From Acidobacteriota bacterium (GTDB taxonomy: Bacteria; Actinomycetota; Acidimicrobiia; ATN3), in NCBI GenBank assembly GCA_003577105.1, contig QEUQ01000004.1, positions 22,156 to 86,155 on the forward strand: a stretch of 64,000 bases of DNA, in the 5' to 3' direction. How positions within the stretch are numbered: the first letter of the stretch is position 1; each line of letters begins with the position of its first letter. Positions 17,478 to 41,914 of the stretch are shown here, in pieces. The notes beneath the pieces were generated by a model that saw only the letters and a program-made list of their open reading frames with translations, did no database searches and was not told the origin of the DNA. A program made the translations under genes and the position numbers.

Positions 17478-17978
17478 GGGTCAAATAGCGATAATCGGCT
17501 GGGGGTCACTCGTCTGGGATCCTCGCGACTTGCCGATTGAATCCCCATGGCACGACGACGGCCCAGAGCTGCCAATCGAATTCGCGCGGATTTCGTCGGG
17601 GACCGGCTGACACTCGTGGTTTTGGAGGATGCGCCGCTCCAGCCCACCTACTGGGCCGCCAGTACCAAGGCGACCTTGGCGCAGGCCAGCGACGATCTCC
17701 GCGGACGGGAGGGCACAATCGACAGCTGCATTGAGAGCGTCGAGCGCGACGACGCCACATCTCAGCCAGACGAGACCGCTACCGAAGCCCGCGAGCGCGT
17801 CGGCGCTTGGCTACGCGAGGGCACCGAACTCACTGGTGCCACCTGGACTGGGTTGCGATCTAACTTTCGGGAAAAGACGCAGTGTCCGTTCAGTAGCAAC
17901 GCGGCGCTCGAGTACCTCCGGGGGCTGATCGACACTAAACGAGCTCATCGGATTTCAGCGGGGAGTCACGGTCGGTAG
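17478..17978 (+). pseudogene. Gamma-glutamylcyclotransferase (ChaC/GGCT)-like gene with apparent +1 frameshift near 17600
   Basis: Frame A (GTG 17478) encodes 'IAIIGWGSLVWDPRDL...' and stops at ~17610. The frame of ORF 17547 continues '...RLTLVVLEDAPLQPTYW...'. The two frames overlap across 'gaattcgcgcggatttcgtcgggg'. Confidence 0.3.
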
Positions 17979-20504: not shown

Positions 20505-21430
20505 TTTTCAGGGTCTCCTCTCTCGGCCTCGCCGGCGAACTCATCGAGGGAAAGCTGCCCTTCGATCTCGGGTCGACGTCGGCGTCGCCGCCCCGACGCC
20601 TGACGCAGCAGCCGCTGCCAACCCTGTGTCTGTCCTCTGGGGTCCGAATCAGCAGGATTCCTAAGTATCGTAACGGTCCCGCCTCTTTGATTCCTCACTC
20701 GCCCGGTCGTTCGCGAAACGGTGAAGTCACCGAAGAACGTCGTTTGGGCCGCCCGGTGGAGCACGTCCGTTACCCGGACAGCGATTCGCGAACGTGTCGT
20801 GTGGCTCAGCATCGTCAGAAAGGGAACGCGATCTACAAGTGCAATAACGGGGACGACTGACTCGCCACGGCTCATTGCGGCTACTACCTCCGCGACGAAG
20901 ATTCGCTCGATGTCGTCGTCCGAGCTTTCCGCGTCCACCTGGATCAGCGCGGGCGGGGGCCCTGGGACCGGGACCTCAAACGGCTTCAATTCGGAGCCCG
21001 ACGGGACCCTCAACCTGCACTGCCGCCCCCCGACAGCCAGCGTCGCGCAGCTTAGGCCAGATTGCTGTATCCCCTTCAGAATGCGCTCTTCGTTTTCTTC
21101 GAGGAAGGCGTACACGACCTCGACCTTCGTTTTCGACGCCTTCGGGGGGTTGATCGTGATTATGCGACGAAGGTCCTTCAGCGTCATCGCTCCGTACTTC
21201 CGCGCCTGATCGACATCGACGTTTGCGCCGCTCTTGGCCTCGGTAACGATTGCGAGTTTCGAGTCATCGGAAAGCGCAACCCCATCGGCCATGACGGTTG
21301 AAATCGCCGTCGAGATCGGCACTTCAAACCACGCCGGGCGCAGTCCTTGACTACCGAGGGGTCTCGGCCAGCCCGCGTCACCGCGCATCAACGCTATCCA
21401 AGCGTTGATAGGGATGAGCCGTCGATCCAT
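20501..21430 (-). CDS. Hypothetical protein (309 aa)
   Basis: No recognisable domain; co-oriented and translationally coupled to 19395-20504. Confidence 0.4.
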   Translation of the reverse strand: MDRRLIPINAWIALMRGDAGWPRPLGSQGLRPAWFEVPISTAISTVMADGVALSDDSKLAIVTEAKSGANVDVDQARKYGAMTLKDLRRIITINPPKASKTKVEVVYAFLEENEERILKGIQQSGLSCATLAVGGRQCRLRVPSGSELKPFEVPVPGPPPALIQVDAESSDDDIERIFVAEVVAAMSRGESVVPVIALVDRVPFLTMLSHTTRSRIAVRVTDVLHRAAQTTFFGDFTVSRTTGRVRNQRGGTVTILRNPADSDPRGQTQGWQRLLRQASGRRRRRRPEIEGQLSLDEFAGEAERGDPEK

Positions 21431-21716
21431 CAGCGTCCTCCCTGGGTTTCCGCGGATACGAGCGAACGGGCCAGAGCATTCTGCTTCAGCGGCGTGACAG
21501 CGTGAGGGAATTCGTCGCCGGCGTCGTAGCGACGATCTCCTTGTCGAAGACAGGCCGCGTCAAGTCCACGGCCGATTTCAAGGCGGCGCTCGAGATCCCA
21601 GCCGAACGGCAGGCCCTCGTGGCCGCGACCCGCATACGACCGGCTCAAGATCGTGGCCCGCGCAAGCGAATTCCGCGACTCGTGCCGAGAGCCGGTTTCA
21701 ATGCCATCACCGGTCG

Positions 21717-24398
21717 TCATGAGGATGCGAGCTCCTCGGATGGTCGCGCGCCTTGAGGAAGCTTGACCGTGACGGCGTCGCCGATGAATCGGTAGCGATC
21801 CGGGTAGCAGGTGAGCAGGATCACTTGGCACTGCTGGCGCGCGGCGATCATGCGAATCACTGCCCCAAGTGCCTCGAGCCGTTCAGGATCGCTGTAGCCC
21901 AGCGCATCATCGAGCACAACGGGTACGCCTGAGTCCGGGTCGACAAGAGCAGCCGTTGCCAGGCGCGCCAAGATCGAGAGCTGTTCGCGAGCCCCAACGC
22001 TCAGCTGCTCGAAGGGGACCGTCACGCCGTCAAGCGCACGCCGGCTGATCGCGAGGTCTTCACTCAGCTCGACCGCGAAGCTGGCACCGAAAACGATCCG
22101 GCCCAGCTCTTCGATCTTCTCCCGCAGCGGTGCCCTGTACCGCTGAAACGCTTCAGTGCGGCAAGCTGCCATCGTCTCGTAGAGCTTCGCGGCAGCTTGC
22201 GCGCGACGCCACAGCGATTCCCAAGCTCGGCGCTGATGCTCCAGCTGAGACCTGGCTTCGTCCAGTTGCTCCGCTATGCCATCAGCGCCCAGAGTCTCAA
22301 GCTTCACGCGTGCGTCGCGAAGGTCGTGCGCGGTGCTGTCCCGGTCCTCCCTGCATCTGTCGACTGCGGCGGAAGCGTTTTCAGCTCTGGCCCGGACTTT
22401 CTCGGGCTCAAGAGCCTCGTACTCACGACGGCCGTCCTCTAGGCGAGCCGCCTTCTCTTGGACATCGCGCTCCTTAGAGCGGAGCTTCTCTTCAAGCTCC
22501 TCATCTGAATGCTGCTGCCGGGCTCCTTCCAGCTCTTCCCGGACCTGTGCCAGTCGGCCCCGCAGCTGCTCGTGATCGGCCTGTTGCTTGGCAAGTTGCT
22601 GATTGAGCGTTTCGAGTTGGGACTGTGCAGCATCCCGCTCACTTTCGGCTTCAGCGCGCTCCTCATCGGCCTCCTCTCGGGCCGTTTCAGCAGCGGCCAA
22701 GAGCGCGCTGGCGTCGTCGAGGTCAGCAGCCATCGATAAGTCAGATTGGCGCGTTTCCGGATGCGCATCCACAAATGCTCTGAGGTTGCTCACCTTCTGC
22801 TTAAGTTCTTCTCGACTCAAGTCTCGAAGAGCATCTCGGATGCGCTCCTCAGCATGCTTGATAACGCCGGCTGCCTCGCGTCGCTCGTCGTTGACTCGCT
22901 TGGCGTCAGCAAGGTCGGTTACCCCGAGGTCGGCCAGGAGCCCAGCGATGTTCGCCTGGACATCGTCGAGTTCCCGGGATGCAATCTCCGGGGAAGATCC
23001 GGGCCGAACCGTGATTGTGACAATCTCGGGGATCTCGAACTTGGCCTCGGCGGTAACTCTCCTCTCAATAGGGTGGCCATCCCGGAGCTGCTCTGGCTCA
23101 CCGTCAATCACGAGCGAGGAGTTAGTGTGAGGCTCTAGGCGAACACTCGGGCTCCCAGCCTCAAGGGTTGCGCGCTTCACAATCGCCTCGTGCTCAAGTT
23201 GCCGCAGACGCTCCAGCGCGTCGTCATCCACGAGACTCCGACTCACGACTTCTTGCGCGACGGCCACCTCCTGCTCGGCCGCTTCTGCTCGAGCCAGGCG
23301 CTCGCCCATCATTTCGAGGTCGAGCTTGCCTCGAAGGAAGTCATGGTCGGTCCTCCGAATCTGCTCGATTCGGCGGCAGTCTTCCAGGACAGAATTCGCC
23401 TGCTTGCCGCGCTCGATCGCCCTGTCAACACGAACTCTGGCGTTCGCCTGATCGCTCGATACCGCCGCGCGGCCACTCGCGAGGCCGGTTTCTTGCTCGA
23501 TGTACTGCTTTTCGTCGTCAGCGAGCTTTCTACGCCGCTCCACCGCGTCGCTGACGGGAGCTAATTCGGCCTTGGCGCTGTTGAGTTCAGACTCAAGCTG
23601 TTCAATCTCTGACGCCTTCGCAATCACGTTATCGAGCTTGGCACCGAGATCCGCGGCCTCAGCCTCCGCCTCCGCAAGGCGGATTTCGAGTCGGGCGCGA
23701 TCTCTTGCAAGGCTTTCCGCTGTTGATGTGAGCTCTTCAAGGTCTCTGAGGGCCGTTTCTCGCTCACCCTCGCGACCTTCGAGTTCCCTCACTGCGTCTT
23801 CTTGCTCCTGTATTTCCTTCTTGCGCTTCCCGGTACCCGTGAAGTACTTGCCAAACTCGGTCTCTGCCTTCGCGAAAAGTGTGTCTTCCGCGGCACTCAC
23901 GGGTGTGCTGCCGGCAGCGCCATCGAGTGCAGCCTGAAGCGCATGCGACTCACCCAGCGTCGGCTGAGAGATCTCTGTGCCCTGCTCGAATTGAAGAGCT
24001 GCCCAAAGACCCTCGTCCAACGTCTCCGCGATGATCTCGCTCATCCGTTCGTGCGCTTCTCGTCCCGCGATCGATTCAGTTCGCGGCTTGGTGATCTGCA
24101 GTGTCGTCTCGCCACGCCGGCCTGGGCCAAATGTCTTGCTGTAGGTGAGTTCGTAGTCCCCCGTCTGCAACGTCAACTCAACCCGGGGGTCAGCATCCCG
24201 ATGAACCGGCCTGCTCGCCTTGACATCCTTCTTGGTTGAGTCTGAAGGCGCAGTAAAGAGAAGGTTGATGGCTTCTATGAGCGACGACTTACCGACCTCA
24301 TTCGGACCTTCGACGATTGTGATCCCATCAGTACTGAAATCAACATCGCACTCATCAACCCCACGGAAGTTACGGATGCCGACACGGTGAATCCTCAC
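21717..24398 (-). CDS. SbcC/Rad50-like AAA ATPase with long coiled coil (actinobacterial Rv1278-like)
   Basis: N-terminal 'IRNFRGVDECDVDFSTDGITIVEGPNEVGKSSLIEAI' P-loop, ~500 aa of Ala/Glu/Arg-rich coiled coil, C-terminal 'QVILLTCYPDRY' D-loop region; 4-bp overlap with the upstream SbcD-like gene. Confidence 0.8.
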   Translation of the reverse strand: MRIHRVGIRNFRGVDECDVDFSTDGITIVEGPNEVGKSSLIEAINLLFTAPSDSTKKDVKASRPVHRDADPRVELTLQTGDYELTYSKTFGPGRRGETTLQITKPRTESIAGREAHERMSEIIAETLDEGLWAALQFEQGTEISQPTLGESHALQAALDGAAGSTPVSAAEDTLFAKAETEFGKYFTGTGKRKKEIQEQEDAVRELEGREGERETALRDLEELTSTAESLARDRARLEIRLAEAEAEAADLGAKLDNVIAKASEIEQLESELNSAKAELAPVSDAVERRRKLADDEKQYIEQETGLASGRAAVSSDQANARVRVDRAIERGKQANSVLEDCRRIEQIRRTDHDFLRGKLDLEMMGERLARAEAAEQEVAVAQEVVSRSLVDDDALERLRQLEHEAIVKRATLEAGSPSVRLEPHTNSSLVIDGEPEQLRDGHPIERRVTAEAKFEIPEIVTITVRPGSSPEIASRELDDVQANIAGLLADLGVTDLADAKRVNDERREAAGVIKHAEERIRDALRDLSREELKQKVSNLRAFVDAHPETRQSDLSMAADLDDASALLAAAETAREEADEERAEAESERDAAQSQLETLNQQLAKQQADHEQLRGRLAQVREELEGARQQHSDEELEEKLRSKERDVQEKAARLEDGRREYEALEPEKVRARAENASAAVDRCREDRDSTAHDLRDARVKLETLGADGIAEQLDEARSQLEHQRRAWESLWRRAQAAAKLYETMAACRTEAFQRYRAPLREKIEELGRIVFGASFAVELSEDLAISRRALDGVTVPFEQLSVGAREQLSILARLATAALVDPDSGVPVVLDDALGYSDPERLEALGAVIRMIAARQQCQVILLTCYPDRYRFIGDAVTVKLPQGARPSEELASS

Positions 24399-25558
24399 GT
24401 GCCGCTCCTAGCCAACCGGTAAAGCAATCCCAGTGCGTCTCGAGCCGCCCGCGACGGATCGTCAAGATCGGTGCCTCCCGTCGATGCCTCGGCCACAAGA
24501 CGATCGAGTGCATCTTTGGCGAAGCCGGAAAGTCCAAGGTCGCTGAAGTCGTCGTCGTCAGGGCGAACCGCGAGATCACTCTCGCGGTCCCAGTCTTCGA
24601 CAGCAGCGAAAAGGTCGCTCGCTCTGTCGAGAATCTCACCCAGCTCGGCTTCCTCGCGAATGCTGACCGTCCCCCGAAATGCCAGCTTTAAGATCTTTCG
24701 ATCCTTCTGTGAGAAACTCTCGAGCCAATCGTCGACAACCCTCAGGTCATCAGCCCCGTCTATCGGAAACTCCCGGCGGATGAAACTCCAGGTTCCAGTG
24801 TGGCGCTTCTCGACCCGGCACTTCGAGCCGTCGAGCTCGACGACAAGGATGTTGCCGGAATCGTCTTCGACGTAATCGGTGGGCTCCGGGGTCCCCGAGT
24901 ACCAAATGCGGCCGGTCTCCCCTGCATCGAGCGTCGAGTGCCTGTCGCCGAGGGCAACGTAGTCGAGTAGTCCGTCGCGCACATTCTGCTCGGCCGATGC
25001 GAGGGAGATAAGCGCTGGATTCGCTTCATCTGGTACCAGCGAATCGAGCTGCCCGTGCGCGACGCCAATCCGGATGCCCGACTTGCCGCCGCCTTCGATA
25101 CCCGCTTTCGCGATTGCATCCGCGAGGAGGTCTGTCAGCGGCTTACGAGTAAGCAACGGAGCTGCGATTACCTGGACTCCCGGTGACACCTCTACAAGTC
25201 CCGGCTCGTCGAGGACAACGACATTGTCCGGCTTGCGTTCCCCGAACTCGGGCGTTTGGTATATCGACGATGGATCAAGCGCGTCGTGGTTGCCCGGGAG
25301 CAAGTAGAAGGTGACTTCGCACTCGGAGATCGCTTCGAGAGTGGCATACACCGTGCGACGGTGCAGGAAGTTGGAGTCGAAGACATCGCCTGCAACGACT
25401 ACAAAATCACAGGATTCCTCAGCCGCAACGCGCCCAATCGCCCGGATGGCTTCGAGTCGCGCGTCATTGAACCGAGCTTGCGCATCGGCATCGAGGAAGT
25501 GCCGCGTCATCCCGATCTGCCAGTCGGATGTGTGGATGAATCGAGTGCCGTCAGACAT
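24395..25558 (-). CDS. SbcD/Mre11-like metallophosphoesterase (Rv1277-like)
   Basis: 'FIHTSDWQIG', 'VVVAGDVFD', 'LLPGNHD' calcineurin-like phosphoesterase motifs; internal Met at 25558 taken as start. Confidence 0.8.
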   Translation of the reverse strand: MSDGTRFIHTSDWQIGMTRHFLDADAQARFNDARLEAIRAIGRVAAEESCDFVVVAGDVFDSNFLHRRTVYATLEAISECEVTFYLLPGNHDALDPSSIYQTPEFGERKPDNVVVLDEPGLVEVSPGVQVIAAPLLTRKPLTDLLADAIAKAGIEGGGKSGIRIGVAHGQLDSLVPDEANPALISLASAEQNVRDGLLDYVALGDRHSTLDAGETGRIWYSGTPEPTDYVEDDSGNILVVELDGSKCRVEKRHTGTWSFIRREFPIDGADDLRVVDDWLESFSQKDRKILKLAFRGTVSIREEAELGEILDRASDLFAAVEDWDRESDLAVRPDDDDFSDLGLSGFAKDALDRLVAEASTGGTDLDDPSRAARDALGLLYRLARSGT

Positions 25559-25713
25559 GCGAGGTCTCACTCGGGTCTGGGTTCGACCGGTATTGAGAGA
25601 CAATGCACGTCAACTCCAAATTTGTTCCGGTTCCTGCCCGTGGAGAGATGCAGCACGGGACGGGCCACAGATGGCCATCTCGGGGGCACGAGGCACAACT
25701 GAGAACATCGTTC

Positions 25714-28011
25714 TCAGCCCCACTTGTTCTTCACAAAAGAGACGAGATCCTTTCCCTCAAGAACTCGCGTTGAGTTGTTCACGCGCACGTAGAACACCTG
25801 CTCGCCCTTGGATGTTTTCGCGTATACCGCTTCGGGAGAGGGTGAAACGGTGATGGTGCAAACCTGCTCCTCCTCGATGCCCTCAATGCGGATTCGAGCG
25901 CGAGCCGACGTCGCCGCGCCGAGCGCGGAGGCGAGAACGCTGCTCAGCGCGTTCACATACCGATCCGCGTCGATGCCTTTGTGATCGAGATCTGCTTGAA
26001 TCCCGAGTACCTGATGATCGTCCGAAATCCCTATGGCCAAGGTACCCCCGTCAGCGTTGAAGAACGCCGCTACTGTCTTGATCACGCTCTCTGTCACAAC
26101 CTTTTCGGGCACGTCCGGCTTGTAGCTGAAGAACGCCGACGACTTGAACTCGACAGTCCCATCTTCATCGGCATCGATGAGATCCTTGAGAGTCCACCTT
26201 GGCTCAGTAGGCGGTGACGCAGGAGGTGCGTCTTGCTCGGTCTCATCGCTGGGAAAGTCCCCGTTCCGAAGCTTCTCGAACGCTATCCGCACAACGTTGG
26301 CAATCAGTTGCCGCCGCTCCTTGAGGAACTCGGTGTATTCCATGTTCTCCCACCCTTCAGGCAATGCGTGCCAGAAGCGGGCTTTCTGTTGTTCTTCGCC
26401 GTTGAGTTCACCAAACAGGGCAGGGAAGTACGCGCTAGGGGGCTGGTCACCAATCGAAGCGTTATCGGGCCATTCGACGAAGGCGTAGTTGGCGATCTGA
26501 TTCCGCATACGACTATCGAATCCAAGGGTTCCCAAGTATTTCGCAGGAAAGAGGTGGTGACGTTCGATCGCAGAACGAGGCGCGTGGGTCGATGGGTTCA
26601 GCAGCTCGGCGGTCGTGAGCCGCGAGAACAGAGGAGTAGCACTGAGGAGGACGAGGCTTGCGTGATACGCGAACAGCGTCGGGCTGTAGGCAGCAGAGGT
26701 CTCTAATCCAGACGGCAGCTGGATCTCCCAATAGTCGTTGGTAAGCGCCGTTTCGATGATCTGGTCGAGGGCCAAAACGAAGCCGTCTGAGCCGGTCACG
26801 CCTTCGAGCTGGCGGAGATCTGCCTCCACGCGCGTCTCGAAGCTTCCCGTATACCGTCCGGTTATCGCGGTCATGAAGAACCAGCGAGCGATCACTTCCC
26901 GAAGTAGCCTCCGGTCGACGCCATAGGTCCGCAGGCCTATCAGGTAAAAGAGGTAGCCAAACAACAGGTTGTTCTCCGAGCTGATCATCGAGTGGCTGCA
27001 GTATCCGGCTCGGCGGATCCCCTTCAAGAACTCGTGCCAGTTCGTCAGGTCTAGCACCGCCGATTGTGCGTCGCGCAGTGCGTCAAACTGTCGCTCCCGG
27101 ACCTCAGCAGAGACTTCGCCAGTCGCTAGATCCTTCCCGCGCAAGACCTGATAGACCGACCTGAGTCGGCCACGCCGGAACGCCAGGCCTGCCGCGACTC
27201 GCAGCAGTTGGTCTGGCGAGGGCGCGATAAAAGGGTTCGCGGGAGACGCCACACCCGAAGGCGCGGTCTTCGCGGCACGCGCGAACTCCTCCAGGGCCTT
27301 GCGCCCCTTATCCCACCAAACAGACATCAGGGTAAGAATGAAATCTGCTTGATCAAGTCGGACACCCTCGCTGTTGATACGCACGAAAATCTCGGCGACC
27401 TGCTCTTCGTCGATGTCGCTGCCAAGTTCTACGATCTTGAATGGATAATTCCTCATGTCGAAGAGGCGGTCGATGGCTGTCCAGTGGCGGTCCTCCTCAT
27501 CCTCGTCCAGCTCGCCTTTGGCGGCCTCCAGACGATCGATGAATGACTGCACCTTCTTCTTCATTCCTCCACCGGCCCAAAGGGTGGAGATGTCGGAAAT
27601 GAACTCAGGATCCTTCTCAATTGCGGCGTCAGCCACTTCGAACTGGGCATCGCGGGGCCTAAAAGCGATACGAATTCGGCTCTCGGTAAAGTCATCGCGG
27701 ACAACGGGCTGACCCGTCATGACGGCATAGAGCGAGGTAAGGCGCTGTTGGCCATCTACGATCATGAGGCGTGGCGCGGCCTCCTTCGTGTCGGTACCAA
27801 TACTCCTGGCGCCGGCCTCGGCCCCCGTTGACCAGAGCAACAAGAACCCGACAGGAAATCCCCGATACATCGAGTCGAAAAGGTCCCGGACCTTTGCGGC
27901 CTTCCAGACGAACGGGCGCTGGATGTCTGGCAGCGCGATCTCGCCTCGCCGAATCTCCTCTAATAGAGTCGACAGGTTATATGTCGTGTCTTTGAAGACT
28001 GTTATGGCCAC
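25714..28011 (-). CDS. GmrSD-like type IV restriction enzyme (DUF262 + DUF1524/HNH-like) fused to a C-terminal AlbA_2 / Schlafen-like domain
   Basis: N-terminal DUF262 'DIQRPFVWK...DGQQRLTSL', central DUF1524 'IERHHLFPAKYL', C-terminal 'EFKSS...NADGGTLAIGISDDHQVLGI' (AlbA_2-like). Confidence 0.7.
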   Translation of the reverse strand: MAITVFKDTTYNLSTLLEEIRRGEIALPDIQRPFVWKAAKVRDLFDSMYRGFPVGFLLLWSTGAEAGARSIGTDTKEAAPRLMIVDGQQRLTSLYAVMTGQPVVRDDFTESRIRIAFRPRDAQFEVADAAIEKDPEFISDISTLWAGGGMKKKVQSFIDRLEAAKGELDEDEEDRHWTAIDRLFDMRNYPFKIVELGSDIDEEQVAEIFVRINSEGVRLDQADFILTLMSVWWDKGRKALEEFARAAKTAPSGVASPANPFIAPSPDQLLRVAAGLAFRRGRLRSVYQVLRGKDLATGEVSAEVRERQFDALRDAQSAVLDLTNWHEFLKGIRRAGYCSHSMISSENNLLFGYLFYLIGLRTYGVDRRLLREVIARWFFMTAITGRYTGSFETRVEADLRQLEGVTGSDGFVLALDQIIETALTNDYWEIQLPSGLETSAAYSPTLFAYHASLVLLSATPLFSRLTTAELLNPSTHAPRSAIERHHLFPAKYLGTLGFDSRMRNQIANYAFVEWPDNASIGDQPPSAYFPALFGELNGEEQQKARFWHALPEGWENMEYTEFLKERRQLIANVVRIAFEKLRNGDFPSDETEQDAPPASPPTEPRWTLKDLIDADEDGTVEFKSSAFFSYKPDVPEKVVTESVIKTVAAFFNADGGTLAIGISDDHQVLGIQADLDHKGIDADRYVNALSSVLASALGAATSARARIRIEGIEEEQVCTITVSPSPEAVYAKTSKGEQVFYVRVNNSTRVLEGKDLVSFVKNKWG

Positions 28012-28153
28012 GTTTTCCTCCCTCTGATCCGATACTCACTATCTGGCGCAGACGCGTCGGCGGGCAGCTGTCTATCTTGCTCCGCCACCCCGTCAGCGAA
28101 CGAGTGCTTGTAGAAACCGCTCGCGACCTTTGGGCGGAAACTGCATTGAAAAG

Positions 28154-31100
28154 TCATTTCATGGATTCCATAAGGGTGAGGATGGTGTCTTTGGTGCGGT
28201 AGGTGCCGTAGGTGGCTTCGTCGTGGCGGCGGACGATGGGGAAGGTGTCGAGGATGTACGCCGCGTCGTCGGCGTTGATGCCGTAGAGGTGGAAGAAGGC
28301 GGCGTCGAGTTCGCAGCGGAGTTGGAAGCGGCGCTCGGGGTCCCACGCGAAAGGCGGGCCGTCGTAGCCGAGGTCGCGAGCGAATGGTTCGAGACCCCAC
28401 GACGTGTAGACGAGTTCTAGGACGCGCGAAGAAATCCAGTCGGCGAGCGTTTCGGCTGGCGCCCATGGCGCAGACGCGTCGTACGTCGAGGGCGAGAAGA
28501 CCGGCAGCTGCTTGAATGTGAAGAACTTCATGTGTGTGCCACCGACCTTCTGGCGGGCCACAAAGTCGTATACGAAAGCGTCAATGTTTCCGAGAAGACT
28601 GGCGTACACAACAGGAAGCTGCCCGCTCGACGGTAATAGCAGGAGGAAATTGTCACCGACGCCAACCAGTGGGATGAGGGCCGATATCGCGGTGCGCTCG
28701 TCGGTGCTGCGGGCAATATCGCGCCAGCCGAGGAGCCAGGGGCGGTCCCATTTGCCGGCAAGGCGGGCCGAGACATCCGCAGCGGGGACCCAGTAGCGGG
28801 GCAGCGGCTGGTAGTTGGGGTCGGCAAGCACGGAATCGGAAATGTCTGGGAGCTGGGTGCTCTTGGAGCCCGCTGGGAGCATCGAGTAGTCGCCGAAGCG
28901 GTGGTTGAACTGGTGGATCATCTTGGCCTCGTACAAGGGCACGTACTGCTCGTCGGCGCGCTGGAAGATGTTGCCTTTCAGTGTCCAGCCGTCGGCTTCG
29001 AGCCCCTCGCGAGTGCGGAAGAGCCCCGAGTCTGAAGTCATGTTGAACAAACCTTGTTTCAGCTGTGCGCCCCAGGGATTGCCTTCTTCCCCCTTGGACT
29101 CATCGATCAGTACGGGCACACGCTCGTAAATTGCCTTGGTGATCTCGGCGTCCCGCCGCGTGCGGAAGATCGGACACGTCTTGGTATTCGGATTGATCAG
29201 TGCGATGTCGGCGGGGCTGAGCGTGATTTGCTTCTCGGGGCGCGCAACATCTTCGGTCGAGTGTGCAAAGAAGACAAAGTCGGCTGCTGCGGCGGGAGAC
29301 TCGGGACCGGTAAGAGCGAGCAAGCAGAACTTGACTCTGCTGTCCACCGCTGGAAACACACGATCGCGGTTCTCGAAGTCCAGGAGCGCGACAAGCGAGC
29401 TCTGCTCGACGAGATCTTGAAAGAAGAACTTGGTCGTGTCATCCGTCGCGATCCCCGACGGCAGCACAGCGCCAACTCGTCCGGCATCCGACGCCAATGT
29501 GCGCATCCCCTCGGCAAAAACCGCGTAGCTGTTGATCTTGCCGGTTCCGCTCAGCGGGTACCTGCCGGACGATCGAACGAAATGGCTTGTCGCATGGCTG
29601 TTGTGAACAGCTCGCTTGAATTCCGCGTGCAGTTCGGGCTGTTCGGATTCGAGCTTCGCAATAAGCTTCTTGCGCTCTGCTCCTGAGGCGGACGCGATTT
29701 CGGGGTCGCGTGAGGCGAAGAACTCCTGTTCAGCAGTAACGAGCTGCTCCCATGGCGGGTTTCCGACGACGACATCAAAGCCGCCGCGCCATCCGGTTAC
29801 CTCGTCTGAGTCGATCGCGAGGTTGTCTTTGGGCGAGAAGACATCGGGGAAAGCCAGATGGAAGTGGAAGAACTGGTTTTCGCGAGCGAGCCGGTCGATC
29901 TCATCCAGAGTCCGGCGGGGCACCGGGGCATCGCCTGTCACGAGGTTGGTCAAGACCTCTTGGGTGACAGGCTCTGGGCCGTCTGTGACCGCGGGCCAGA
30001 AGAAGGCCGCACACCAGGCATCTGCAACCAGCTTTGCCTTCTCGAAGTCATCGGAAGCGACTAGGCTCCGATAACGCTGCTCCTTCTCTCCCACTTGGTA
30101 TATGGAGTCCTGCGGCGCATCCTCTAGTTCGAGGGCGCCGGCGCTGATTGCTGAGTAGCGCGATTCGAGGCCGCGCTGGGGTGCGAGGCTGAGCTGCCCG
30201 CCCTCAGACGCCAACTTGTTCCGCTTCTTATACGACGCCGCGATCTTCTTGTCGTCGCCTTCGATAGGCGCAAAGGCCTCGTTGGGAATCCCGCGCTTGA
30301 TGAGTGCCGGGGTGGCCCCTACGAGCGAATCGCCGACCAAGATCTTGTGGTCGAGGAAGGCCAGGGGCTTGCCGGGCTCCATCGCCTCCATCCATAGCGA
30401 GACTCTGCATAGCTCAGCTGCCATCTCGTTCTTGTCGACGCCATAGATGCAGCGGGCGATGACATCTCTCAGCGCGTGGCGCACCGCTTCGGGGGGCGGC
30501 TCTTCTTCGCCGGTGCGCACTTGAGCTACGCGGCGAGCAATGCGACGAGCGGCGGCAACGAGGAAGTGGCCGCTGCCCGTAGCCGGGTCGAGCACTTTGA
30601 CATCTAGTAGGGCGGCTTCGGGGTCGTCGCTTTGCTGCGCTCGATCCAAGATTGGGTCAAGTGCTCGATCTAGGAGTTCATCGATTAGCGATGACGGCGT
30701 GTAGTAGCTCCCCGTAGTCTTGCGCTCATTGCCACTTGCGACCTTGAGTTCAAAGGTAGCCGCATCGAGACTGAGCACGGGGTGAAGCTCTAGGAGCGAC
30801 TCGTAAACCGAGCCAAGCTCTTCTGCACCTAGGTTCTTGTAGTCGACCCTACGGCGCTTACCCGCTGCATCGACTAGAGAGAGCGACCTGATCGCGTCGA
30901 GAAGGCCGAGTTCGGGGCATCCACGTTCGTCACCAAGCCACCCGGTGACGAGGCGCAGAATCTCGAATAGGTCGGAGTGCGCCGTGCCAACCCTCCGCTC
31001 AGCGAGTTCGCGCAGGCGCGCAGTTGAGTAGTTGTCTATGTAGAGATTGCGGGCTTCGCCGGATGCTTCCGGGCCGAAGAGAAGGTTCCGGTCATCGGCG

Positions 31101-32008
31101 ACGAAGAGGAAGATCAGGCGATAGATCAGGCGCATCAGCTGGCGGTAGTAGGCGAGTGTCGAGAGCTCGCCGCTTCGCAGGCGGTCACGGAGTACGTCGT
31201 TCTTCGGGTGCTCGAGAAAGCCCGAGCCCAGGGCTGCAAGAGCCTCTTCGACCCCGGCGCGCAACTGGTCGAGGGCGCGGGTGCCTTCGCGAATGGCGGT
31301 GTCACGCCAGCGTTCGAGCCAGCAGGTCTCGGGCGGCTCTCCCTCGACCCGGGAGACATGGAAGAGCATGTACGCGAGGACAAAATCGGCGTAGAGATCA
31401 CCGTCGAAGATTGCTTCTAGGTCGAACTCGAGATATGCCTGGCGGGCGAGACTGGCGTTGTCCCGCAGGAGTCTGAGGCGCACGCCATTGGAGACGATGC
31501 CCCAGAGATGATCGTCTGAGCGGTTGAGGAACTCTTGTACCAGCGAGTGCGGGCTCGCCTGCGCGGCGCCGCGGGCGCCGGCCGTTCGCTTGTCTATGTC
31601 TAAGCGGGCGCCGATCAGGTGGATCGGCACATGGCCCCAGAAGTGCGATAGGGGGTATTCCCGCCCATCAAGCTCAGTCGCCTTGCGGGCAGGCTGGAGT
31701 CGGCCAAACCCGAGCTCTTGGAAGAGAATCAGCAACCATCGGTCGCGGGTGAGCCCGGTGGCATGGTCGTCTTCGGGGGTCTTTGCGAGTGCGTCTTTGT
31801 AAGCGGCCCATGCGCCGACGAGGCGAGTCCATGCGCGGTTGGCAGCTTCACCGAGGCGCTCGCCCGAGGCGAGGTGGTAGTCACCGGGGCGGAGGCCCTT
31901 GAGCTCGCTGTCACCCTGAGATATGCGGGCGACTATGTCGGGCGGAATCAGCGACCCCTCGACCGTGAGGGAGATGAACGACGCAGTCTCTTGGCGGCGG
32001 CGGGCCAT
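28154..32008 (-). CDS. N6-adenine DNA methyltransferase, Eco57I/PglX/DrmMI-type (1284 aa)
   Basis: 'TGSYYTPSSLIDELLD', 'VLDPATGSGHFLVAAARRIA' (motif I), 'VVGNPPW' (motif IV). Size and N-terminal region match BREX PglX / DISARM DrmMI-class enzymes. Confidence 0.85.
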   Translation of the reverse strand: MARRRQETASFISLTVEGSLIPPDIVARISQGDSELKGLRPGDYHLASGERLGEAANRAWTRLVGAWAAYKDALAKTPEDDHATGLTRDRWLLILFQELGFGRLQPARKATELDGREYPLSHFWGHVPIHLIGARLDIDKRTAGARGAAQASPHSLVQEFLNRSDDHLWGIVSNGVRLRLLRDNASLARQAYLEFDLEAIFDGDLYADFVLAYMLFHVSRVEGEPPETCWLERWRDTAIREGTRALDQLRAGVEEALAALGSGFLEHPKNDVLRDRLRSGELSTLAYYRQLMRLIYRLIFLFVADDRNLLFGPEASGEARNLYIDNYSTARLRELAERRVGTAHSDLFEILRLVTGWLGDERGCPELGLLDAIRSLSLVDAAGKRRRVDYKNLGAEELGSVYESLLELHPVLSLDAATFELKVASGNERKTTGSYYTPSSLIDELLDRALDPILDRAQQSDDPEAALLDVKVLDPATGSGHFLVAAARRIARRVAQVRTGEEEPPPEAVRHALRDVIARCIYGVDKNEMAAELCRVSLWMEAMEPGKPLAFLDHKILVGDSLVGATPALIKRGIPNEAFAPIEGDDKKIAASYKKRNKLASEGGQLSLAPQRGLESRYSAISAGALELEDAPQDSIYQVGEKEQRYRSLVASDDFEKAKLVADAWCAAFFWPAVTDGPEPVTQEVLTNLVTGDAPVPRRTLDEIDRLARENQFFHFHLAFPDVFSPKDNLAIDSDEVTGWRGGFDVVVGNPPWEQLVTAEQEFFASRDPEIASASGAERKKLIAKLESEQPELHAEFKRAVHNSHATSHFVRSSGRYPLSGTGKINSYAVFAEGMRTLASDAGRVGAVLPSGIATDDTTKFFFQDLVEQSSLVALLDFENRDRVFPAVDSRVKFCLLALTGPESPAAAADFVFFAHSTEDVARPEKQITLSPADIALINPNTKTCPIFRTRRDAEITKAIYERVPVLIDESKGEEGNPWGAQLKQGLFNMTSDSGLFRTREGLEADGWTLKGNIFQRADEQYVPLYEAKMIHQFNHRFGDYSMLPAGSKSTQLPDISDSVLADPNYQPLPRYWVPAADVSARLAGKWDRPWLLGWRDIARSTDERTAISALIPLVGVGDNFLLLLPSSGQLPVVYASLLGNIDAFVYDFVARQKVGGTHMKFFTFKQLPVFSPSTYDASAPWAPAETLADWISSRVLELVYTSWGLEPFARDLGYDGPPFAWDPERRFQLRCELDAAFFHLYGINADDAAYILDTFPIVRRHDEATYGTYRTKDTILTLMESMK

Positions 32009-32010
32009 CG

Positions 32011-34962
32011 CTACGCTCCCCCGCCCTGTGTTGCTTGTGCCTGTGGCTGGGGCACATAGACGTAGATACCGACGATGTCGCGTGGAAGCTCGGCCTCTAC
32101 ATCGACCTTGGCGCCCTTAGCTTTGGCGGCCTCGCGCACTCGCATGTGCTGTTCTGCGACGGCATCGGCACGCCGGAGCGCCTCGGCCTCAAAGACGGGC
32201 GCCAGGCCGGCGGCGGATTCGAGCGCGGCGGCGATGCGTGTTCGCGCATCCTCTGACGCGATGTTGCCGTCGGGGCGGGTATCGAGAAGCGCCTCGATCT
32301 CGTCGGGCTCAAGCCACTCAGCTTTGCCGGTGCTGTTGCGCCATGCGAGCACACCACAGTCTTCGACAAGTGACCGCTTGAGGCCGCTCGGCGTCTTGGC
32401 CGTGAGGTGGAACCTGATGCGAAGCAGCACAAGGGTCGTCGCCGTTGTGACACCCGAGGTGCGAAATGCGCCGCACCGCCTTGCGGGCGAGATCTGGCCG
32501 GCCCCGGGTTCGTCAACGGGGTCAATTGCGAGATCGAGAAGGTAGGTCGCCAATCCGTTGACGAATGGGTGAGTGCGGCTGAAGTACTGCGCTCCCTTGG
32601 GGGCGGGGAAATCAAATGTCGCAGTCAGATCGTTAGAGCCGTTGTGAGTTGGCCCAGGCGCCGTGTTGGTGCTCGCGTAGTCGCGCAATGCCCGAGGTGT
32701 ATGTGCGAGGTTGATTTCAACGGTATCGAGGGGTTTCGCGGTCGCAGTCTTTGCCGTGCCGCCAAGTGCCGGGATCGCGGTCAGTATGAAGTCGCGCACC
32801 GACCCCGGAGAGCCCATCGCCCTGCGCATCTCATCGACGACTTCGCCTACTTCTGCAGCGTCGATGCCGTGCTGGGCAAAGATCGTGCGGGAGCGCTTCT
32901 CGGTGTCGGCGGCTTGTTCCCACTCGCCGAAGAGCTCCTCGCGCTTGGGTTTCAAGAACTCATCGAGAAGGCGGAGCTGTTCGCCCTGTGAGCCCGACTG
33001 CTCTCTTAGTAGGAGCCCCTCGAAGATCGCCTCGACGAGGTTGTTCGAGTCGACCGGTACGGGTACCGAGACACCAGTGGCCTGGCGAATCGCCTTGTGC
33101 TTGCGGATCAAAATGTCGAGAACGATGCCGTCGATCTGGTTGTCGGTGCTGTAGTAGGTGAGGACTCGCACCTTGGGGCTCTTCTGGCCGAAGCGATCGA
33201 CGCGCCCATCGCGCTGCTCGTGCCGGGTTGGGTTCCACGCCAGGTCGTAGTGGACTACTGCGTCAAACCAGTCTTGTAAGTTGATGCCTTCGCTCAGGCA
33301 ATCGGTGGCAACGAGGATCCGCTTCTCTGACTTCGCGAGTTCGCACACCCGGGCCTCGCGCTCATCGTGTGGAAGGCGGCCGGTGACCGCGATGACCTCA
33401 GTGCCCTTCTTGAGCTTCTTTCGCAGCTGCTCGGCGAGATACTCGGCGGTTGGAATGAAGCGGCAGAAGACAATCGGACTGAAGCCGTCTTTGAGAAGTT
33501 CGGCAATGAGCTTTGTTGCCTTCTTCAGCTTGGGGTCGCCATCACCGGCGAGGGCCTCTGCTGCCTTGGCCATCTCTCGCAGACGACGTTGCTCGCTCTC
33601 GGCCACAGCCGGGCTTGTTTCGGATTCGATCTCGTCAGAGATTGAACCGGGGATTACGTCGCTTGGGTCACCTGCATCGTCATCGGCGAGGTCGAGAACA
33701 GTCCGGCGCCCGACCTCGTCGGCCTCTTCCGGTGTCTCGGTATTGATTGCCGCCGCCCGGGTTCTCAGCGTCTCGGCAGCAGCCATTGGCGATGACCCGA
33801 GAGACCTCAGCAGTGCAAGGGCCGACCACCACTGGACCCGGTTGCGATACGTGCCGGTCTCGGTGTCGCGGATCTTCTCTCTCGCGTAGTCGACGGCGCG
33901 GTTGAAGAGCTTCTGATACTCGGGTGTCAGCTCATAAGCGGCTTCGGAGTCTTCACGATCAGGGAACGATGTATCGGTCTCGAGGTAATGGCGGATGTCG
34001 CCCCTGCGGCGCTGGACCATGTGGCGCGCAAGAGCTCTCCGGTGCTTTTCATTTTGCGGGCCGTTCAGATCGTCGGGCATTTCGCGGAGCTTGCTGTTGA
34101 GTAATGCCACGAGCGACTTGAACGATTCGGGCTTGCCGCTATGAGGCGTCGCAGTAACAAGGACAATGTGGCGATCGTCGTCTTCGGCGAGCTTGGTCAC
34201 GAGCTGGTTGCGCAGATGGCGATTGTGGGTCTCGGCTCCAACCGAACAAGTGTGAGCCTCGTCGACAATCACCAGGTTAGGACATGCCCTGACGAAGTCA
34301 TCGCGGCGACGATCCGACTTGATGAAGTCGATCGAGACGATTGTCACGGGATGCGCTTCAAAGAGCGACTGGCCGAAACTGGTCTGGCGCTCTAGGCGTG
34401 AGACAGTCGACGGCAGTACGACTTCGGCTTCGATGTGGAACTTTTCTGACAGCTCGCCACGCCACTGCTCGGCAAGATGAGGCGGGCAGAGCACGCAGAG
34501 CCCGGTTGCGTCACCTTGTTCGAGAAGTTCCTTGGCAATGAGCGCGGCCTCGATGGTCTTGCCGACGCCGACATCATCTGCAATGAGAAGGCGCACCGGG
34601 TCGAGACGGAGCGCCATGAGCAAGGGCACCAGTTGGTAGGGGCGGGGTTCGACGGCGACCTTGGCGACTGATCTGAAGGGGCCGGCTGATGATCTGAAGC
34701 CGATACGCAGTGAGTCTCTCAGTAGGCGGCACGAGAGGTAGTCGCCGAGCTGAGAGGGGTCGGGCGGGTCGAATTGCGCTGACTCGACCTTCTCGAGCGT
34801 CGCGAGCACACCGGCTGCCTCGATGGCAGAGCCGCCGAGAGGGTGGAGCACCAACAAATCGCCTGCTGATTCGGGCTGGACGATCCACTCACGTCCGCGG
34901 GCACGCACGATCGACCCTGGCGAGAAGCGCTCGGCTGCGGGGGCCTGCTCGCTCACACTCAT
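32011..34962 (-). CDS. SNF2-family helicase (DrmD-like)
   Basis: 'LLIADDVGVGKTIEA', 'DEAHTCS', helicase-C 'TDCLSEGINLQ...RDGRVDRFGQ'; start overlaps the stop of the upstream gene (ATGA). Confidence 0.85.
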   Translation of the reverse strand: MSVSEQAPAAERFSPGSIVRARGREWIVQPESAGDLLVLHPLGGSAIEAAGVLATLEKVESAQFDPPDPSQLGDYLSCRLLRDSLRIGFRSSAGPFRSVAKVAVEPRPYQLVPLLMALRLDPVRLLIADDVGVGKTIEAALIAKELLEQGDATGLCVLCPPHLAEQWRGELSEKFHIEAEVVLPSTVSRLERQTSFGQSLFEAHPVTIVSIDFIKSDRRRDDFVRACPNLVIVDEAHTCSVGAETHNRHLRNQLVTKLAEDDDRHIVLVTATPHSGKPESFKSLVALLNSKLREMPDDLNGPQNEKHRRALARHMVQRRRGDIRHYLETDTSFPDREDSEAAYELTPEYQKLFNRAVDYAREKIRDTETGTYRNRVQWWSALALLRSLGSSPMAAAETLRTRAAAINTETPEEADEVGRRTVLDLADDDAGDPSDVIPGSISDEIESETSPAVAESEQRRLREMAKAAEALAGDGDPKLKKATKLIAELLKDGFSPIVFCRFIPTAEYLAEQLRKKLKKGTEVIAVTGRLPHDEREARVCELAKSEKRILVATDCLSEGINLQDWFDAVVHYDLAWNPTRHEQRDGRVDRFGQKSPKVRVLTYYSTDNQIDGIVLDILIRKHKAIRQATGVSVPVPVDSNNLVEAIFEGLLLREQSGSQGEQLRLLDEFLKPKREELFGEWEQAADTEKRSRTIFAQHGIDAAEVGEVVDEMRRAMGSPGSVRDFILTAIPALGGTAKTATAKPLDTVEINLAHTPRALRDYASTNTAPGPTHNGSNDLTATFDFPAPKGAQYFSRTHPFVNGLATYLLDLAIDPVDEPGAGQISPARRCGAFRTSGVTTATTLVLLRIRFHLTAKTPSGLKRSLVEDCGVLAWRNSTGKAEWLEPDEIEALLDTRPDGNIASEDARTRIAAALESAAGLAPVFEAEALRRADAVAEQHMRVREAAKAKGAKVDVEAELPRDIVGIYVYVPQPQAQATQGGGA

Positions 34963-41911: not shown

Positions 41912-41914
41912 GCG

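What the first reader, a model, noticed from the sequence alone, without database searches (positions are those of the whole stretch)
25714..28011. GmrSD-like type IV restriction protein fused to an AlbA_2/Schlafen-like domain, placed directly downstream of the DISARM-like operon
A single 765-aa ORF carries DUF262 (DIQRPFVWK...DGQQRLTSL), DUF1524 (HHLFPAKYL) and a ~150-aa C-terminal extension 'EFKSS...NADGGTLAIGISDDHQVLGIQADL'. That extension looks like the AlbA_2 / 'divergent AAA-4' domain found in Schlafen proteins and some helicases. It is co-oriented with the DISARM-like genes, 142 bp downstream of the methyltransferase. Pairing a modification-dependent nuclease with a putative nucleic-acid-sensing AlbA_2 domain next to a methylation-based system suggests layered defence. 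I have not seen this fusion described.
Basis: partly seen in the sequence, partly recalled or inferred. Interest (0 to 1): 0.65.

Follow-up and report, generated by a model that had tools for sequence, protein, structure and literature searches.

The report
BrxU-like restriction enzyme fused to Schlafen RNase
This is a real single gene that joins a BrxU/GmrSD-type DNA-cutting defence enzyme to a Schlafen-type RNA-cutting domain; it belongs to a widespread family whose domain combination was already published in 2025-26 as an anti-phage class, so it is a solid but not new kind of find.

Summary

The Schlafen domain keeps the catalytic Ex4ExK motif and Asp (E616, E621, K623, D664) in all 62 relatives that carry it.

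The fusion is not unique. More than 120 protein clusters, from many phyla, share the full architecture. The DUF262-Slfn class (pSlfn7, 109 members) is published (Nat Microbiol 2026), and a distant E. coli member lacking the HNH motif was shown to protect against T7.

Sister proteins end at about 582 aa or carry RAMA, DUF4268 or HEPN-like domains instead, so the C-terminus is a swappable slot.

The DISARM-like operon 142 bp upstream is real. A similar operon precedes only 2-3 of 84 homologues; the others sit alone or beside BREX, RM or other systems. The gene is an autonomous module, embedded the way BrxU is in BREX.

The parts
25714..28011 (-). Whole gene: 765-aa GmrSD/BrxU-like protein with a C-terminal Schlafen domain (stop codon 25714-25716)
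   Evidence: ORF listing. Identical deposited protein and more than 120 full-length homologue clusters. AlphaFold2 model with mean pLDDT 84.4.
28017..28022 (-). Shine-Dalgarno-like GGGAGG, 5 nt upstream of the GTG start
   Evidence: Upstream sequence printed. The N-termini of homologues align from residue 1.
27334..27975 (-). DUF262 / ParB-like NTPase domain (aa13-226) with R42-DLFDS47 and D86-GQQR90
   Evidence: Pfam PF03235 E=4.3e-32. BrxU 7p9k aligns at aa13-234. R42, D46, S47 and DGQQR are invariant in 85/85 family sequences.
26602..27333 (-). All-helical linker/body region (aa227-470), as in BrxU and SspE
26266..26601 (-). HNH (His-Me finger) / DUF1524-like nuclease region (aa471-582): H485-H486-L-F-P, N504, N508, N517. 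The BrxU-like core ends at about aa 580.
   Evidence: hhalign places HHLFP on BrxU DHIYP and N504/N508/N517 on BrxU's Asn residues. The profile hits BrxU 474-579. The motif is conserved in the family: H486 80/85, N504 85/85. Pfam PF07510 itself does not hit.
26191..26265 (-). Flexible Pro-rich inter-domain linker (aa583-607)
   Evidence: pLDDT <50 for aa590-602. Core-only relatives stop at about aa 582.
25717..26190 (-). Single-lobe Schlafen/AlbA_2 domain (aa608-765) with catalytic E616, E621, K623, D664

Best explanation
The gene encodes an autonomous, single-polypeptide anti-phage protein with two nuclease modules. Residues 1-582 are a BrxU/GmrSD-type type IV restriction core. This core has a ParB-like DUF262 NTP-binding/hydrolysing domain, a helical body and an HNH (His-Me finger) DNase. 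A flexible Pro-rich linker joins it to a single-lobe Schlafen domain (aa608-765) that retains the tRNase catalytic residues. By its Pfam composition the protein falls in the published prokaryotic Schlafen class pSlfn7 (DUF262-Slfn).

Proposed mechanism (inferred, not shown here): the core, probably a dimer like BrxU, recognises invading DNA, most likely modified DNA, under nucleotide control. The HNH cuts that DNA. The tethered Schlafen domains cleave tRNA/RNA, adding a translation-shutdown (abortive-infection-type) layer.

Its position at the 3' end of a DISARM-like operon is the 'embedded/appended accessory defence gene' arrangement known for BrxU in BREX. It is not an obligate DISARM component.

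Shown here: domain identities, motif conservation, fold matches, family distribution and variable context. Inferred: all enzymatic activities, the trigger, oligomeric state and coupling between domains.
For: - Domains: PF03235 and PF04326.
- HHLFP/N504/N508/N517 align with BrxU DHIYP/N/N/N. D/H mutations in that BrxU motif, and DGQQR mutations in HEC-06, abolish defence (paper read).
- All functional motifs are conserved: DGQQR 85/85, H486 80/85, N504 85/85, and E616/E621/K623/D664 in all 62 Slfn-bearing relatives.
- The Ex4(E/D)xK motif is the catalytic motif of human and bacterial Schlafen tRNases. A DUF262-Slfn protein (EcoSlfn7) lowers T7 plating about 540-fold.
- Autonomy: homologues are solitary among housekeeping genes, or lie next to many different systems with no fixed partner, including BREX, RM I/III, DISARM-like, Mokosh, MADS and Gabija.
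- Sister proteins with the same core carry RAMA, DUF4268 or weak HEPN-like hits in the same slot, or nothing. This shows a modular C-terminal accessory position in which RNase-type domains may recur (a ParB+HNH+HEPN architecture is listed in the paper read).
Against: - No activity was measured for this protein or for any close homologue.
- The only tested DUF262-Slfn protein (EcoSlfn7) shares just motif-level similarity, lacks an HNH motif, and is most active against T7/T3. To my knowledge those phages do not carry hypermodified DNA, so 'modified DNA' as the trigger is not supported by that precedent.
- Pfam DUF1524 does not hit, and the hhalign/HMM evidence for the HNH region is weak statistically (E=0.0077; i-E=0.025).
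- Five Slfn-bearing relatives have lost H486, so the HNH may not be essential.
- Some eukaryotic AlbA_2/Slfn domains bind nucleic acid without known cleavage (the SAMD9 domain was crystallised as a 'DNA-binding domain').
Confidence: 0.6

Rival explanations
1. First reader's model. The protein is a GmrSD-type modification-dependent DNase whose only effector is the HNH. The AlbA_2/Schlafen domain is a non-catalytic nucleic-acid-binding or sensing module that helps recognise the target.
Against: The full Schlafen catalytic set (E616, E621, K623, D664) is invariant in 43/43 aligned homologues and in all 62 Slfn-bearing loci. Such strict conservation of acidic active-site residues is not expected for a pure binding domain. 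In bacterial Schlafens these residues are required for toxicity and tRNA cleavage. HNH loss occurs only in Slfn-bearing members, which fits Slfn being able to carry the effector role.
Confidence: 0.15
2. The gene is a functional subunit of the upstream DISARM-like system, for example a nuclease that replaces the missing PLD protein DrmC. It works only together with the helicase, SNF2 and methyltransferase proteins.
For: The gene is co-oriented and only 142 bp downstream of the DrmMI-like gene, and no PLD gene is present in the cluster. Related SNF2+MTase modules lie upstream and co-oriented in Anaeromyxobacter terrae (L051) and Pararhizobium antarcticum (L062). A related MTase gene ends immediately upstream of the homologue in L032.
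Against: Only 2-3 of 84 homologous loci show this arrangement (7 if weaker MTase hits are counted). Three well-assembled homologues sit among housekeeping genes. Other neighbours are BREX, RM I, RM III, Mokosh, MADS, Gabija and more, each in 1-2 loci. In L051 and L062, extra HNH, M78-peptidase and ASCH genes separate the methyltransferase from the homologue. GmrSD-like proteins BrxU and HEC-06 work as single genes.
Confidence: 0.1
3. A sensor-only core. The DUF262/helical/HNH-like part is now just an NTP-gated sensor or regulator, the HNH being vestigial or purely structural. The Schlafen RNase is the sole effector, as presumed for EcoSlfn7, so the protein is a pure abortive-infection toxin and not a restriction enzyme.
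For: EcoSlfn7 defends without any HNH motif. H486 is replaced in 5 Slfn-bearing relatives (Y/R/R/N/L) that keep DGQQR and the Slfn catalytic residues. The authors of the Schlafen study regard fused domains as sensors.
Against: H486 is kept in about 57 of the 62 Slfn-bearing sequences, and N504 in all 85. The motif block ERHHLFP...NQIANxA..EW.DN is among the best conserved stretches. This argues for continued selection on catalysis in most lineages, including this window's protein.
Confidence: 0.15

Closest known systems
BrxU (Escherichia fergusonii pEFER; PDB 7p9k/7p9m), a GmrSD-family type IV restriction enzyme; PADLOC HEC-05
   Same: - N-terminal DUF262 with DGQQR and an (R)-LFDS-type motif.
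- Long helical body.
- C-terminal HNH motif (DHIYP in BrxU, HHLFP here) followed by conserved Asn residues.
- The core is the same length: it ends at about aa 580, and BrxU is 587 aa.
- Sits co-oriented at or inside a methylation-based defence operon.
   Different: - About 16-17% identity only.
- PADLOC HEC-05 models match only aa10-247.
- The first residue of the HNH motif is His rather than Asp.
- This protein has an extra 160-aa Schlafen domain.
- Substrate preference and nucleotide regulation are untested here.
pSlfn7 / EcoSlfn7 (DUF262-Slfn fusion, E. coli UC4224, WP_028985442.1; Nat Microbiol 2026, PMC13056530)
   Same: - Same Pfam composition, PF03235 N-terminal and PF04326 C-terminal.
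- Same Ex4ExK motif and Asp.
- The class is enriched next to defence genes (defence score 0.76).
- The class is experimentally antiviral.
   Different: - EcoSlfn7 is 589 aa, has DGLQR and has no [D/E/H]H..P HNH motif.
- BLASTP finds only two short local matches to it.
- It sits in a P2-like prophage hotspot.
- The window protein keeps a complete BrxU-like HNH core.
- Whether proteins of this subfamily are among the 109 listed pSlfn7 members could not be established (the stored file is truncated).
SspE and other GmrSD-like defence proteins (EcoCT GmrSD, HEC-06, DndI-type DUF262 proteins)
   Different: - The SspE PADLOC model hits only weakly (E=1.2e-5, N-terminus only).
- No phosphorothioation genes were detected among the window ORFs scanned.
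- None of these proteins carries a Schlafen domain.
ParB(DUF262)+HNH+HEPN fusions and GmrSD homologues with DUF4268/DUF4357 (Anantharaman 2013, PMC3710099; Machnicka 2015, PMC4619093)
   Same: The same principle of an accessory domain appended C-terminally to a GmrSD core. Sister proteins of this very core family carry RAMA/DUF4357, DUF4268 or weak HEPN-like matches in the same slot.
   Different: Here the appended domain is Schlafen/AlbA_2. Neither paper lists that combination.

Membership tests
GmrSD/BrxU-like type IV restriction enzymes | N-terminal DUF262 (ParB/Srx-like) domain with the DGQQR nucleotide-hydrolysis motif | tested here: met
   PF03235 E=4.3e-32 at aa13-226. DGQQR at aa86-90, invariant in 85/85 relatives. 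Aligns to BrxU 8-260.
GmrSD/BrxU-like type IV restriction enzymes | C-terminal DUF1524 domain recognised by its Pfam model (PF07510) | tested here: not met
   No PF07510 hit on the full protein at E<=0.01, nor on aa230-600 or aa438-550 at E<=10. None of 10 sister proteins hit it either.
GmrSD/BrxU-like type IV restriction enzymes | HNH/His-Me finger motif ([D/E]H..P ... N ... N) in a DUF1524-like fold downstream of a 200-400-aa helical linker | tested here: met
GmrSD/BrxU-like type IV restriction enzymes | Cleavage of modified (hmC/glc-hmC or other) DNA, regulated by NTP | not testable with these tools
   Needs biochemistry or phage assays.
Prokaryotic Schlafen class pSlfn7 (DUF262-Slfn) | Schlafen/AlbA_2 nuclease domain (PF04326) fused to DUF262 in one polypeptide | tested here: met
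Prokaryotic Schlafen class pSlfn7 (DUF262-Slfn) | Catalytic Ex4(E/D)xK motif | tested here: met
   E616-DGTV-E621-F-K623. Invariant in A1 and in all 62 Slfn-bearing loci. D664, the 'IGxxDD' Asp, is also invariant.
Prokaryotic Schlafen class pSlfn7 (DUF262-Slfn) | Orthology / full-length similarity to the experimentally tested member EcoSlfn7 | tested here: not met
   BLASTP gives only two short local matches, E=5e-4 and 0.01. EcoSlfn7 is 589 aa and has no HNH motif.
Prokaryotic Schlafen class pSlfn7 (DUF262-Slfn) | Anti-phage activity through tRNA cleavage | not testable with these tools
   Shown for RorSlfn5. For EcoSlfn7 only protection was shown. Nothing has been measured for this subfamily.
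DISARM (as a component of the neighbouring system) | Conserved co-occurrence of the gene with the DrmA/B, DrmD and DrmMI genes | tested here: not met
   tblastn of the window's helicase, SNF2 and MTase proteins against 84 homologous loci found the SNF2+MTase module upstream in only 2 loci (L051, L062) and a related MTase in 1 (L032). Weaker hits occur in 4 more. Solitary homologues are seen.
DISARM (identity of the neighbouring operon itself) | Canonical class 1 gene set (DrmA, DrmB/DUF1998, DrmC/PLD, DrmD, DrmMI) passing curated thresholds | tested here: inconclusive
   DrmMI-like (PADLOC E=9e-63, partial). SNF2 scores 332 bits against NCBIfam DISARM_DrmD, whose cut-off is 610, and its best PADLOC hit is a DpdE model (838 bits). 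The 1781-aa helicase with an MZB/DUF1998 domain hits DruE best. No PLD gene was found. The operon is 'DISARM-like', not canonical.

The most novel reading that the evidence does not exclude
A type IV restriction enzyme wired to an abortive-infection effector. The BrxU-like core senses modified (or otherwise foreign) DNA under NTP control. Besides cutting that DNA with its HNH, it licenses the tethered Schlafen tRNase, perhaps by dimerisation that pairs two single lobes into a SLFN-like clamp. One polypeptide would then couple DNA-modification sensing to translational shutdown. In lineages where the HNH histidine has decayed (for example some Streptomyces), the core would have become a pure sensor for the RNase. 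The recurrent swapping of Slfn, HEPN-like, RAMA and DUF4268 domains at the same C-terminal slot would make this core family a general 'GmrSD chassis' for plug-in effectors or readers.
Probability: 0.3. Interest if true: 0.65.

Novelty: new member of a known kind. Interest (0 to 1): 0.35.

Why it matters
If the dual-nuclease reading holds, this subfamily would show how a modification-dependent restriction enzyme can be backed up, within the same polypeptide, by a Schlafen-type tRNase of the type used by human SLFN11 and SAMD9 against viruses. It would also give a tractable model for how DUF262-Slfn (pSlfn7) proteins sense infection, which the published work leaves open. Practically, it flags a widespread family: 254 clusters at 50% identity match the core at E<=1e-30. 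PADLOC and NCBIfam do not name this family, and Pfam only half-annotates it. As a discovery it is incremental. The domain combination and its antiviral role are already in the literature, and the defence-island placement follows the known BrxU/BREX pattern.

Tried and rejected
- Pfam DUF1524 on the isolated middle region at E<=10: no hit, only a spurious NYD-SP28_assoc match. The DUF1524 call had to rest on BrxU/SspE comparisons instead.
- NCBIfam: no family for the target.
- PADLOC: only N-terminal DUF262-level hits to HEC-05, PDC-M55C, NsnA and SspE.
- Promoter/terminator consensus scan of the flanking gaps: nothing above shuffled expectation, so operon membership stays undecided.
- Composition profile: no compositional island signal.
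- Looked for six RefSeq contig accessions of family members in the Schlafen paper's supplementary tables, to see whether this subfamily is among the 109 pSlfn7 entries. None was found, but the stored table is truncated, so the result is inconclusive.
- Literature searches for 'DUF262 + AlbA_2' (0 papers) and 'Schlafen + ParB + HNH + restriction'. No paper in the library explicitly describes the ParB+HNH+Schlafen triple architecture.
- Considered the downstream SbcD/SbcC-like pair as a partner and rejected it: 0 of 84 homologous loci have relatives of these or of the two unknown ORFs nearby.
- Plasmid and phage collections hold only core-only relatives (aa1-581), none with the Slfn domain, so there is no evidence in these collections that the fused form is carried by plasmids or phages.
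- A single-sequence phmmer search for Slfn in sister proteins under-detected domains. I replaced it with a family HMM plus Pfam, which showed that the about 150-aa tails of several sisters are DUF4268, RAMA or HEPN-like and not divergent Slfn.
Full report
**1. Observation**

The ORF at 25714..28011 (-) is real and intact. It has 765 codons, a GTG start and a GGGAGG ribosome-binding site 5 nt upstream.

Pfam-A gives two significant domains:
- PF03235 GmrSD_N/DUF262, aa13-226, E=4.3e-32.
- PF04326 SLFN_AlbA_2, aa616-750, E=1.4e-16 (5.7e-18 on the isolated tail).

The gene is co-oriented with a DrmMI-like methyltransferase and starts 142 bp downstream of it (28154-32008). That methyltransferase follows an SNF2 gene (32011-34962) and a 1781-aa DEAD/Helicase_C/MZB(DUF1998) helicase (34959-40304). 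An identical protein is deposited from a MAG labelled 'Acidobacteria bacterium' (DCC49_02205).

**2. Is the middle part DUF1524?**

Pfam PF07510 does not match. There is no hit on the full protein, and none on aa230-600 or aa438-550 at E<=10. Other evidence shows that this region is nevertheless the BrxU-type HNH module:
- A profile of 43 homologues (A1) hits BrxU (7p9k) in two stretches. These are aa13-234 to BrxU 8-260, and aa480-580 to BrxU 474-579 (i-E 0.025).
- hhalign places H485-H486-L-F-P on BrxU D-H-I-Y-P. It places N504, N508 and N517 on the three Asn residues of BrxU's motif, and runs to the C-terminus of BrxU.
- The AlphaFold2 model (mean pLDDT 84.4, pTM 0.68) has BrxU as its top Foldseek hit in the PDB (E=1.3e-13, 648 columns).
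- The block ERHHLFP(K/R)..L...NQIANxA..EW.DN is one of the most conserved parts of the family. Across the 85 family sequences (84 homologous loci plus the window protein), H486 is kept in 80 and N504 in all 85.
- In BrxU and HEC-06 the equivalent acidic/His pair is required for defence. The DGQQR motif is required in HEC-06 (paper read).

So residues 1-582 are a complete GmrSD/BrxU-like core, although a divergent one. PADLOC's BrxU models (HEC-05) match only its N-terminus, and NCBIfam has no model for it.

**3. The C-terminal domain**

Residues 583-607 are a low-confidence Pro-rich linker. Residues 608-765 fold with pLDDT above 90. This domain matches the following:
- The C-lobe of SLFN14/11/12/5, by sequence profile.

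The published catalytic signature of Schlafen tRNases is Ex4(E/D)xK. It is present here as E616-DGTV-E621-F-K623. The Asp of 'IGxxDD' (D664) aligns with the SLFN14 'IGVDD' Asp. All four residues are invariant in the 43-sequence alignment and in all 62 Slfn-bearing genomic homologues examined.

**4. Family and distribution**

The fusion is not a one-off.
- The word-indexed search returned only full-length hits among its best 120 clusters, at 49-79% identity. Nearly all are annotated PF03235+PF04326, and the few that are not are truncated.
- A scan of one genome per species returned 80 loci. They span Actinomycetota (Streptomyces, Microbacterium, Nocardia), Acidobacteriota, Planctomycetota, Chloroflexota, Alpha-, Gamma- and Deltaproteobacteria, Bacteroidota, Gemmatimonadota and a few archaea.
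- An exhaustive search with the subfamily-specific middle region (aa240-600) found 254 clusters at 50% identity with E<=1e-30, 737 with E<=1e-10 and 1,552 with E<=1e-3.

Within this core family the C-terminus is a variable slot:
- About 14 of the 84 loci end at 582-597 aa, the length of BrxU.
- About 62 carry the Schlafen domain.
- Four carry RAMA (PF18755/DUF4357) instead.
- Among the representatives, others carry DUF4268, or give weak HEPN matches that fall below Pfam cut-offs. Some have 200-450-aa N-terminal extensions that no Pfam family matched in the two examples scanned.

DUF4268 and DUF4357 were already noted as GmrSD add-ons in 2015. A ParB(DUF262)+HNH+HEPN architecture was listed in 2013. 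In the plasmid and phage collections only core-only relatives were found.

One small evolutionary hint concerns the catalytic His. The five sequences that have lost H486 (L007, L025, L028, L040, L063) all carry the Schlafen domain. They retain DGQQR and the Slfn catalytic residues. None of the 15 sequences without an aligned C-terminal tail has lost H486. The numbers are small and phylogenetically clustered (three of the five are Streptomyces), so this is only suggestive.

**5. Genomic context**

Three well-assembled homologues sit alone among housekeeping genes such as metH, the cox operon and prfB.

I ran tblastn with the window's neighbours against the 84 homologous loci. The results were:
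- The related SNF2+methyltransferase module lies upstream and co-oriented in Anaeromyxobacter terrae (L051) and Pararhizobium antarcticum (L062, which also has the helicase).
- A related methyltransferase gene ends immediately upstream of the homologue in L032.
- Weaker methyltransferase/SNF2 similarities occur in four more loci.
- There were no hits at all for the SbcD-like gene, the SbcC-like gene or the two unknown downstream ORFs.

In L051 and L062, HNH/HNH_2 endonuclease, M78-peptidase and ASCH genes separate the methyltransferase from the homologue.

A PADLOC scan of the 135 nearest-neighbour ORFs of 34 Slfn-bearing loci found a diverse set of hits. They include BrxC/BrxA/BrxL/PglZ, type I and type III RM subunits, DrmD/DrmMI, MkoA, MADS proteins, GajB, SoFic and Upx. 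Each occurs in only one or two members.

The gene is therefore an autonomous module that is often parked beside or inside other defence systems, frequently methylation-based ones. It has no fixed partner. This is the pattern described for BrxU in BREX, and for GmrSD-like genes embedded in Hma and RM-I systems, where embedded genes are co-oriented with their host system in 96.7% of cases.

No promoter or terminator consensus could decide whether the gene is co-transcribed with the methyltransferase.

**6. What is already known**

[quoted passage not shown] It catalogued 5,930 prokaryotic Schlafens in 55 architectures. DUF262-Slfn is class pSlfn7, at 1.8% of the total, with 109 members and a defence score of 0.76. 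EcoSlfn7 from E. coli UC4224 reduced T7 plating about 540-fold. That paper gives no mechanism for the DUF262 fusion and never mentions GmrSD, ParB or HNH.

I located EcoSlfn7 (WP_028985442.1) in a P2-like prophage hotspot. It has the same two Pfam domains. However, it is only 589 aa, has DGLQR instead of DGQQR, has no [D/E/H]H..P HNH motif, and shares only two short local BLASTP matches with the window protein.

The window protein thus fits the published class by domain composition. It represents a different, larger lineage that keeps the whole BrxU-like nuclease core. I could not establish whether such proteins are among the 109 listed members, because the stored table is truncated. No paper in the searchable library explicitly describes the ParB+HNH+Schlafen combination.

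**7. Mechanism**

Best-supported reading (confidence about 0.6): this is a stand-alone, two-effector defence protein. Only the motifs, folds and conservation are shown here. Every activity below is inferred.
- By analogy with BrxU, the DUF262 domain binds and hydrolyses NTP and controls a dimeric state.
- The core recognises invading, probably modified, DNA, and the HNH cuts it.
- The flexibly tethered Schlafen domains cleave tRNA or other RNA, adding a translation-arrest layer.

Three rivals remain:
The invariant catalytic residues argue against this.
- (b) The protein is a subunit of the DISARM-like system and substitutes for the missing PLD protein DrmC. The rarity of that linkage argues against this.
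- (c) The core is only a sensor and Slfn is the sole effector, as presumably in EcoSlfn7. Sporadic HNH decay supports this. The strong HNH conservation in most members, including this one, argues against it.

One caveat applies to the 'modified DNA' trigger. EcoSlfn7 is most active on T7/T3, which to my knowledge do not have hypermodified DNA.

**8. Verdict**

- The domain calls are right.
- DUF1524 is right only in the structural and motif sense.
- 'Sensor' is probably wrong.
- 'Undescribed' is out of date.
- 'Downstream of DISARM-like' is true, but it is not a defining association.

Novelty: a new, uncharacterised member, and arguably a distinct HNH-retaining lineage, of known kinds (GmrSD/BrxU-like enzymes; pSlfn7). 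Interest is moderate to low at 0.35. The most novel reading still open is a restriction enzyme that licenses a built-in Schlafen tRNase, on a core that accepts interchangeable C-terminal effector or reader domains. I give that about 0.3 probability.

Noticed in passing
window 28154-40304 (-): The upstream three-gene operon is DISARM-like but non-canonical. It has a 1781-aa helicase with DEAD, Helicase_C and MZB/DUF1998 domains that looks like a fused DrmA+DrmB; its best PADLOC hits are Druantia DruE models. The 983-aa SNF2 protein matches PADLOC DpdE model PDLC02853 end to end (838 bits) but scores only 332 bits against NCBIfam DISARM_DrmD, whose cut-off is 610. The third gene is a 1284-aa DrmMI-like N6-adenine methyltransferase. 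No PLD (DrmC) gene was found. Related SNF2+MTase modules occur in L051 and L062.
   Followed up: partly
window 19395-25603 (-): Four co-oriented genes lie immediately downstream, with 4-bp start/stop overlaps within each of the two pairs. They are an SbcD/Mre11-like metallophosphoesterase (24395-25603), an SbcC/Rad50/LmuB-like ABC/SMC ATPase (21717-24398), and two ORFs of 309 and 369 aa with no Pfam, NCBIfam or PADLOC hit (20501-21430, 19395-20504). This may be another defence module. It is not found near any of the 84 homologues of the target.
   Followed up: partly
window 40358-42400 (+): Divergently transcribed from the helicase is an HTH_3 + Peptidase_M78 (ImmA/IrrE-like) protein of 517 aa, followed 3 bp later by a DUF4411 protein of 161 aa. 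It looks like a regulator or toxin-type pair at the edge of the island. An M78-peptidase gene also sits between the MTase and the target homologue in L062.
   Followed up: no
window 13121-14380 (-) and 17955-19253 (-): A Mutator-family transposase and an ISL3-family transposase flank the downstream side of the defence cluster. This is consistent with a mobile or recombination-prone island. GC content across 12-46 kb shows no distinct compositional signal.
   Followed up: no
loci L025, L028, L040 (Streptomyces), L007, L063; also L029, L033, L050: In some Slfn-bearing homologues the HNH motif has decayed. H486 is replaced by R, N, R, Y and L in the first five. H485 and/or N517 are changed in L029, L033 and L050. 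DGQQR and the Schlafen catalytic residues stay intact in all of them. No core-only homologue has lost H486.
   Followed up: partly
loci L059, L070, L071, L075; proteins P0155, P0132, P0135, P0140, P0133, P0144, P0153: The same GmrSD-like core carries alternative C-terminal domains: RAMA/DUF4357, DUF4268, and weak HEPN_SAV2148 or HEPN_Swt1 hits that fall below Pfam cut-offs. P0133, P0144 and P0153 (and other representatives) also carry N-terminal extensions of about 200-450 aa; no Pfam family matched them in P0144 and P0153. The family behaves as a modular chassis.
   Followed up: partly
L001 8001-9770 (E. coli UC4224 chromosome, NZ_CP104472.1 4519514-4521283): The experimentally validated EcoSlfn7 gene sits in a P2-like prophage, between the portal gene and the DinI-like and replication genes, next to a short pseudogene. 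This region looks like a prophage cargo/defence hotspot. The identical locus occurs in only 3 of 5,426 complete E. coli genomes.
   Followed up: no
L051 5643-9931 and L062 8064-9990: Between the DISARM-like methyltransferase and the GmrSD-Slfn homologue, these loci hold runs of small HNH/HNH_2 endonuclease genes (three in L051, one in L062), plus an ASCH-domain gene and an M78 peptidase. All are co-oriented and tightly packed.
   Followed up: no
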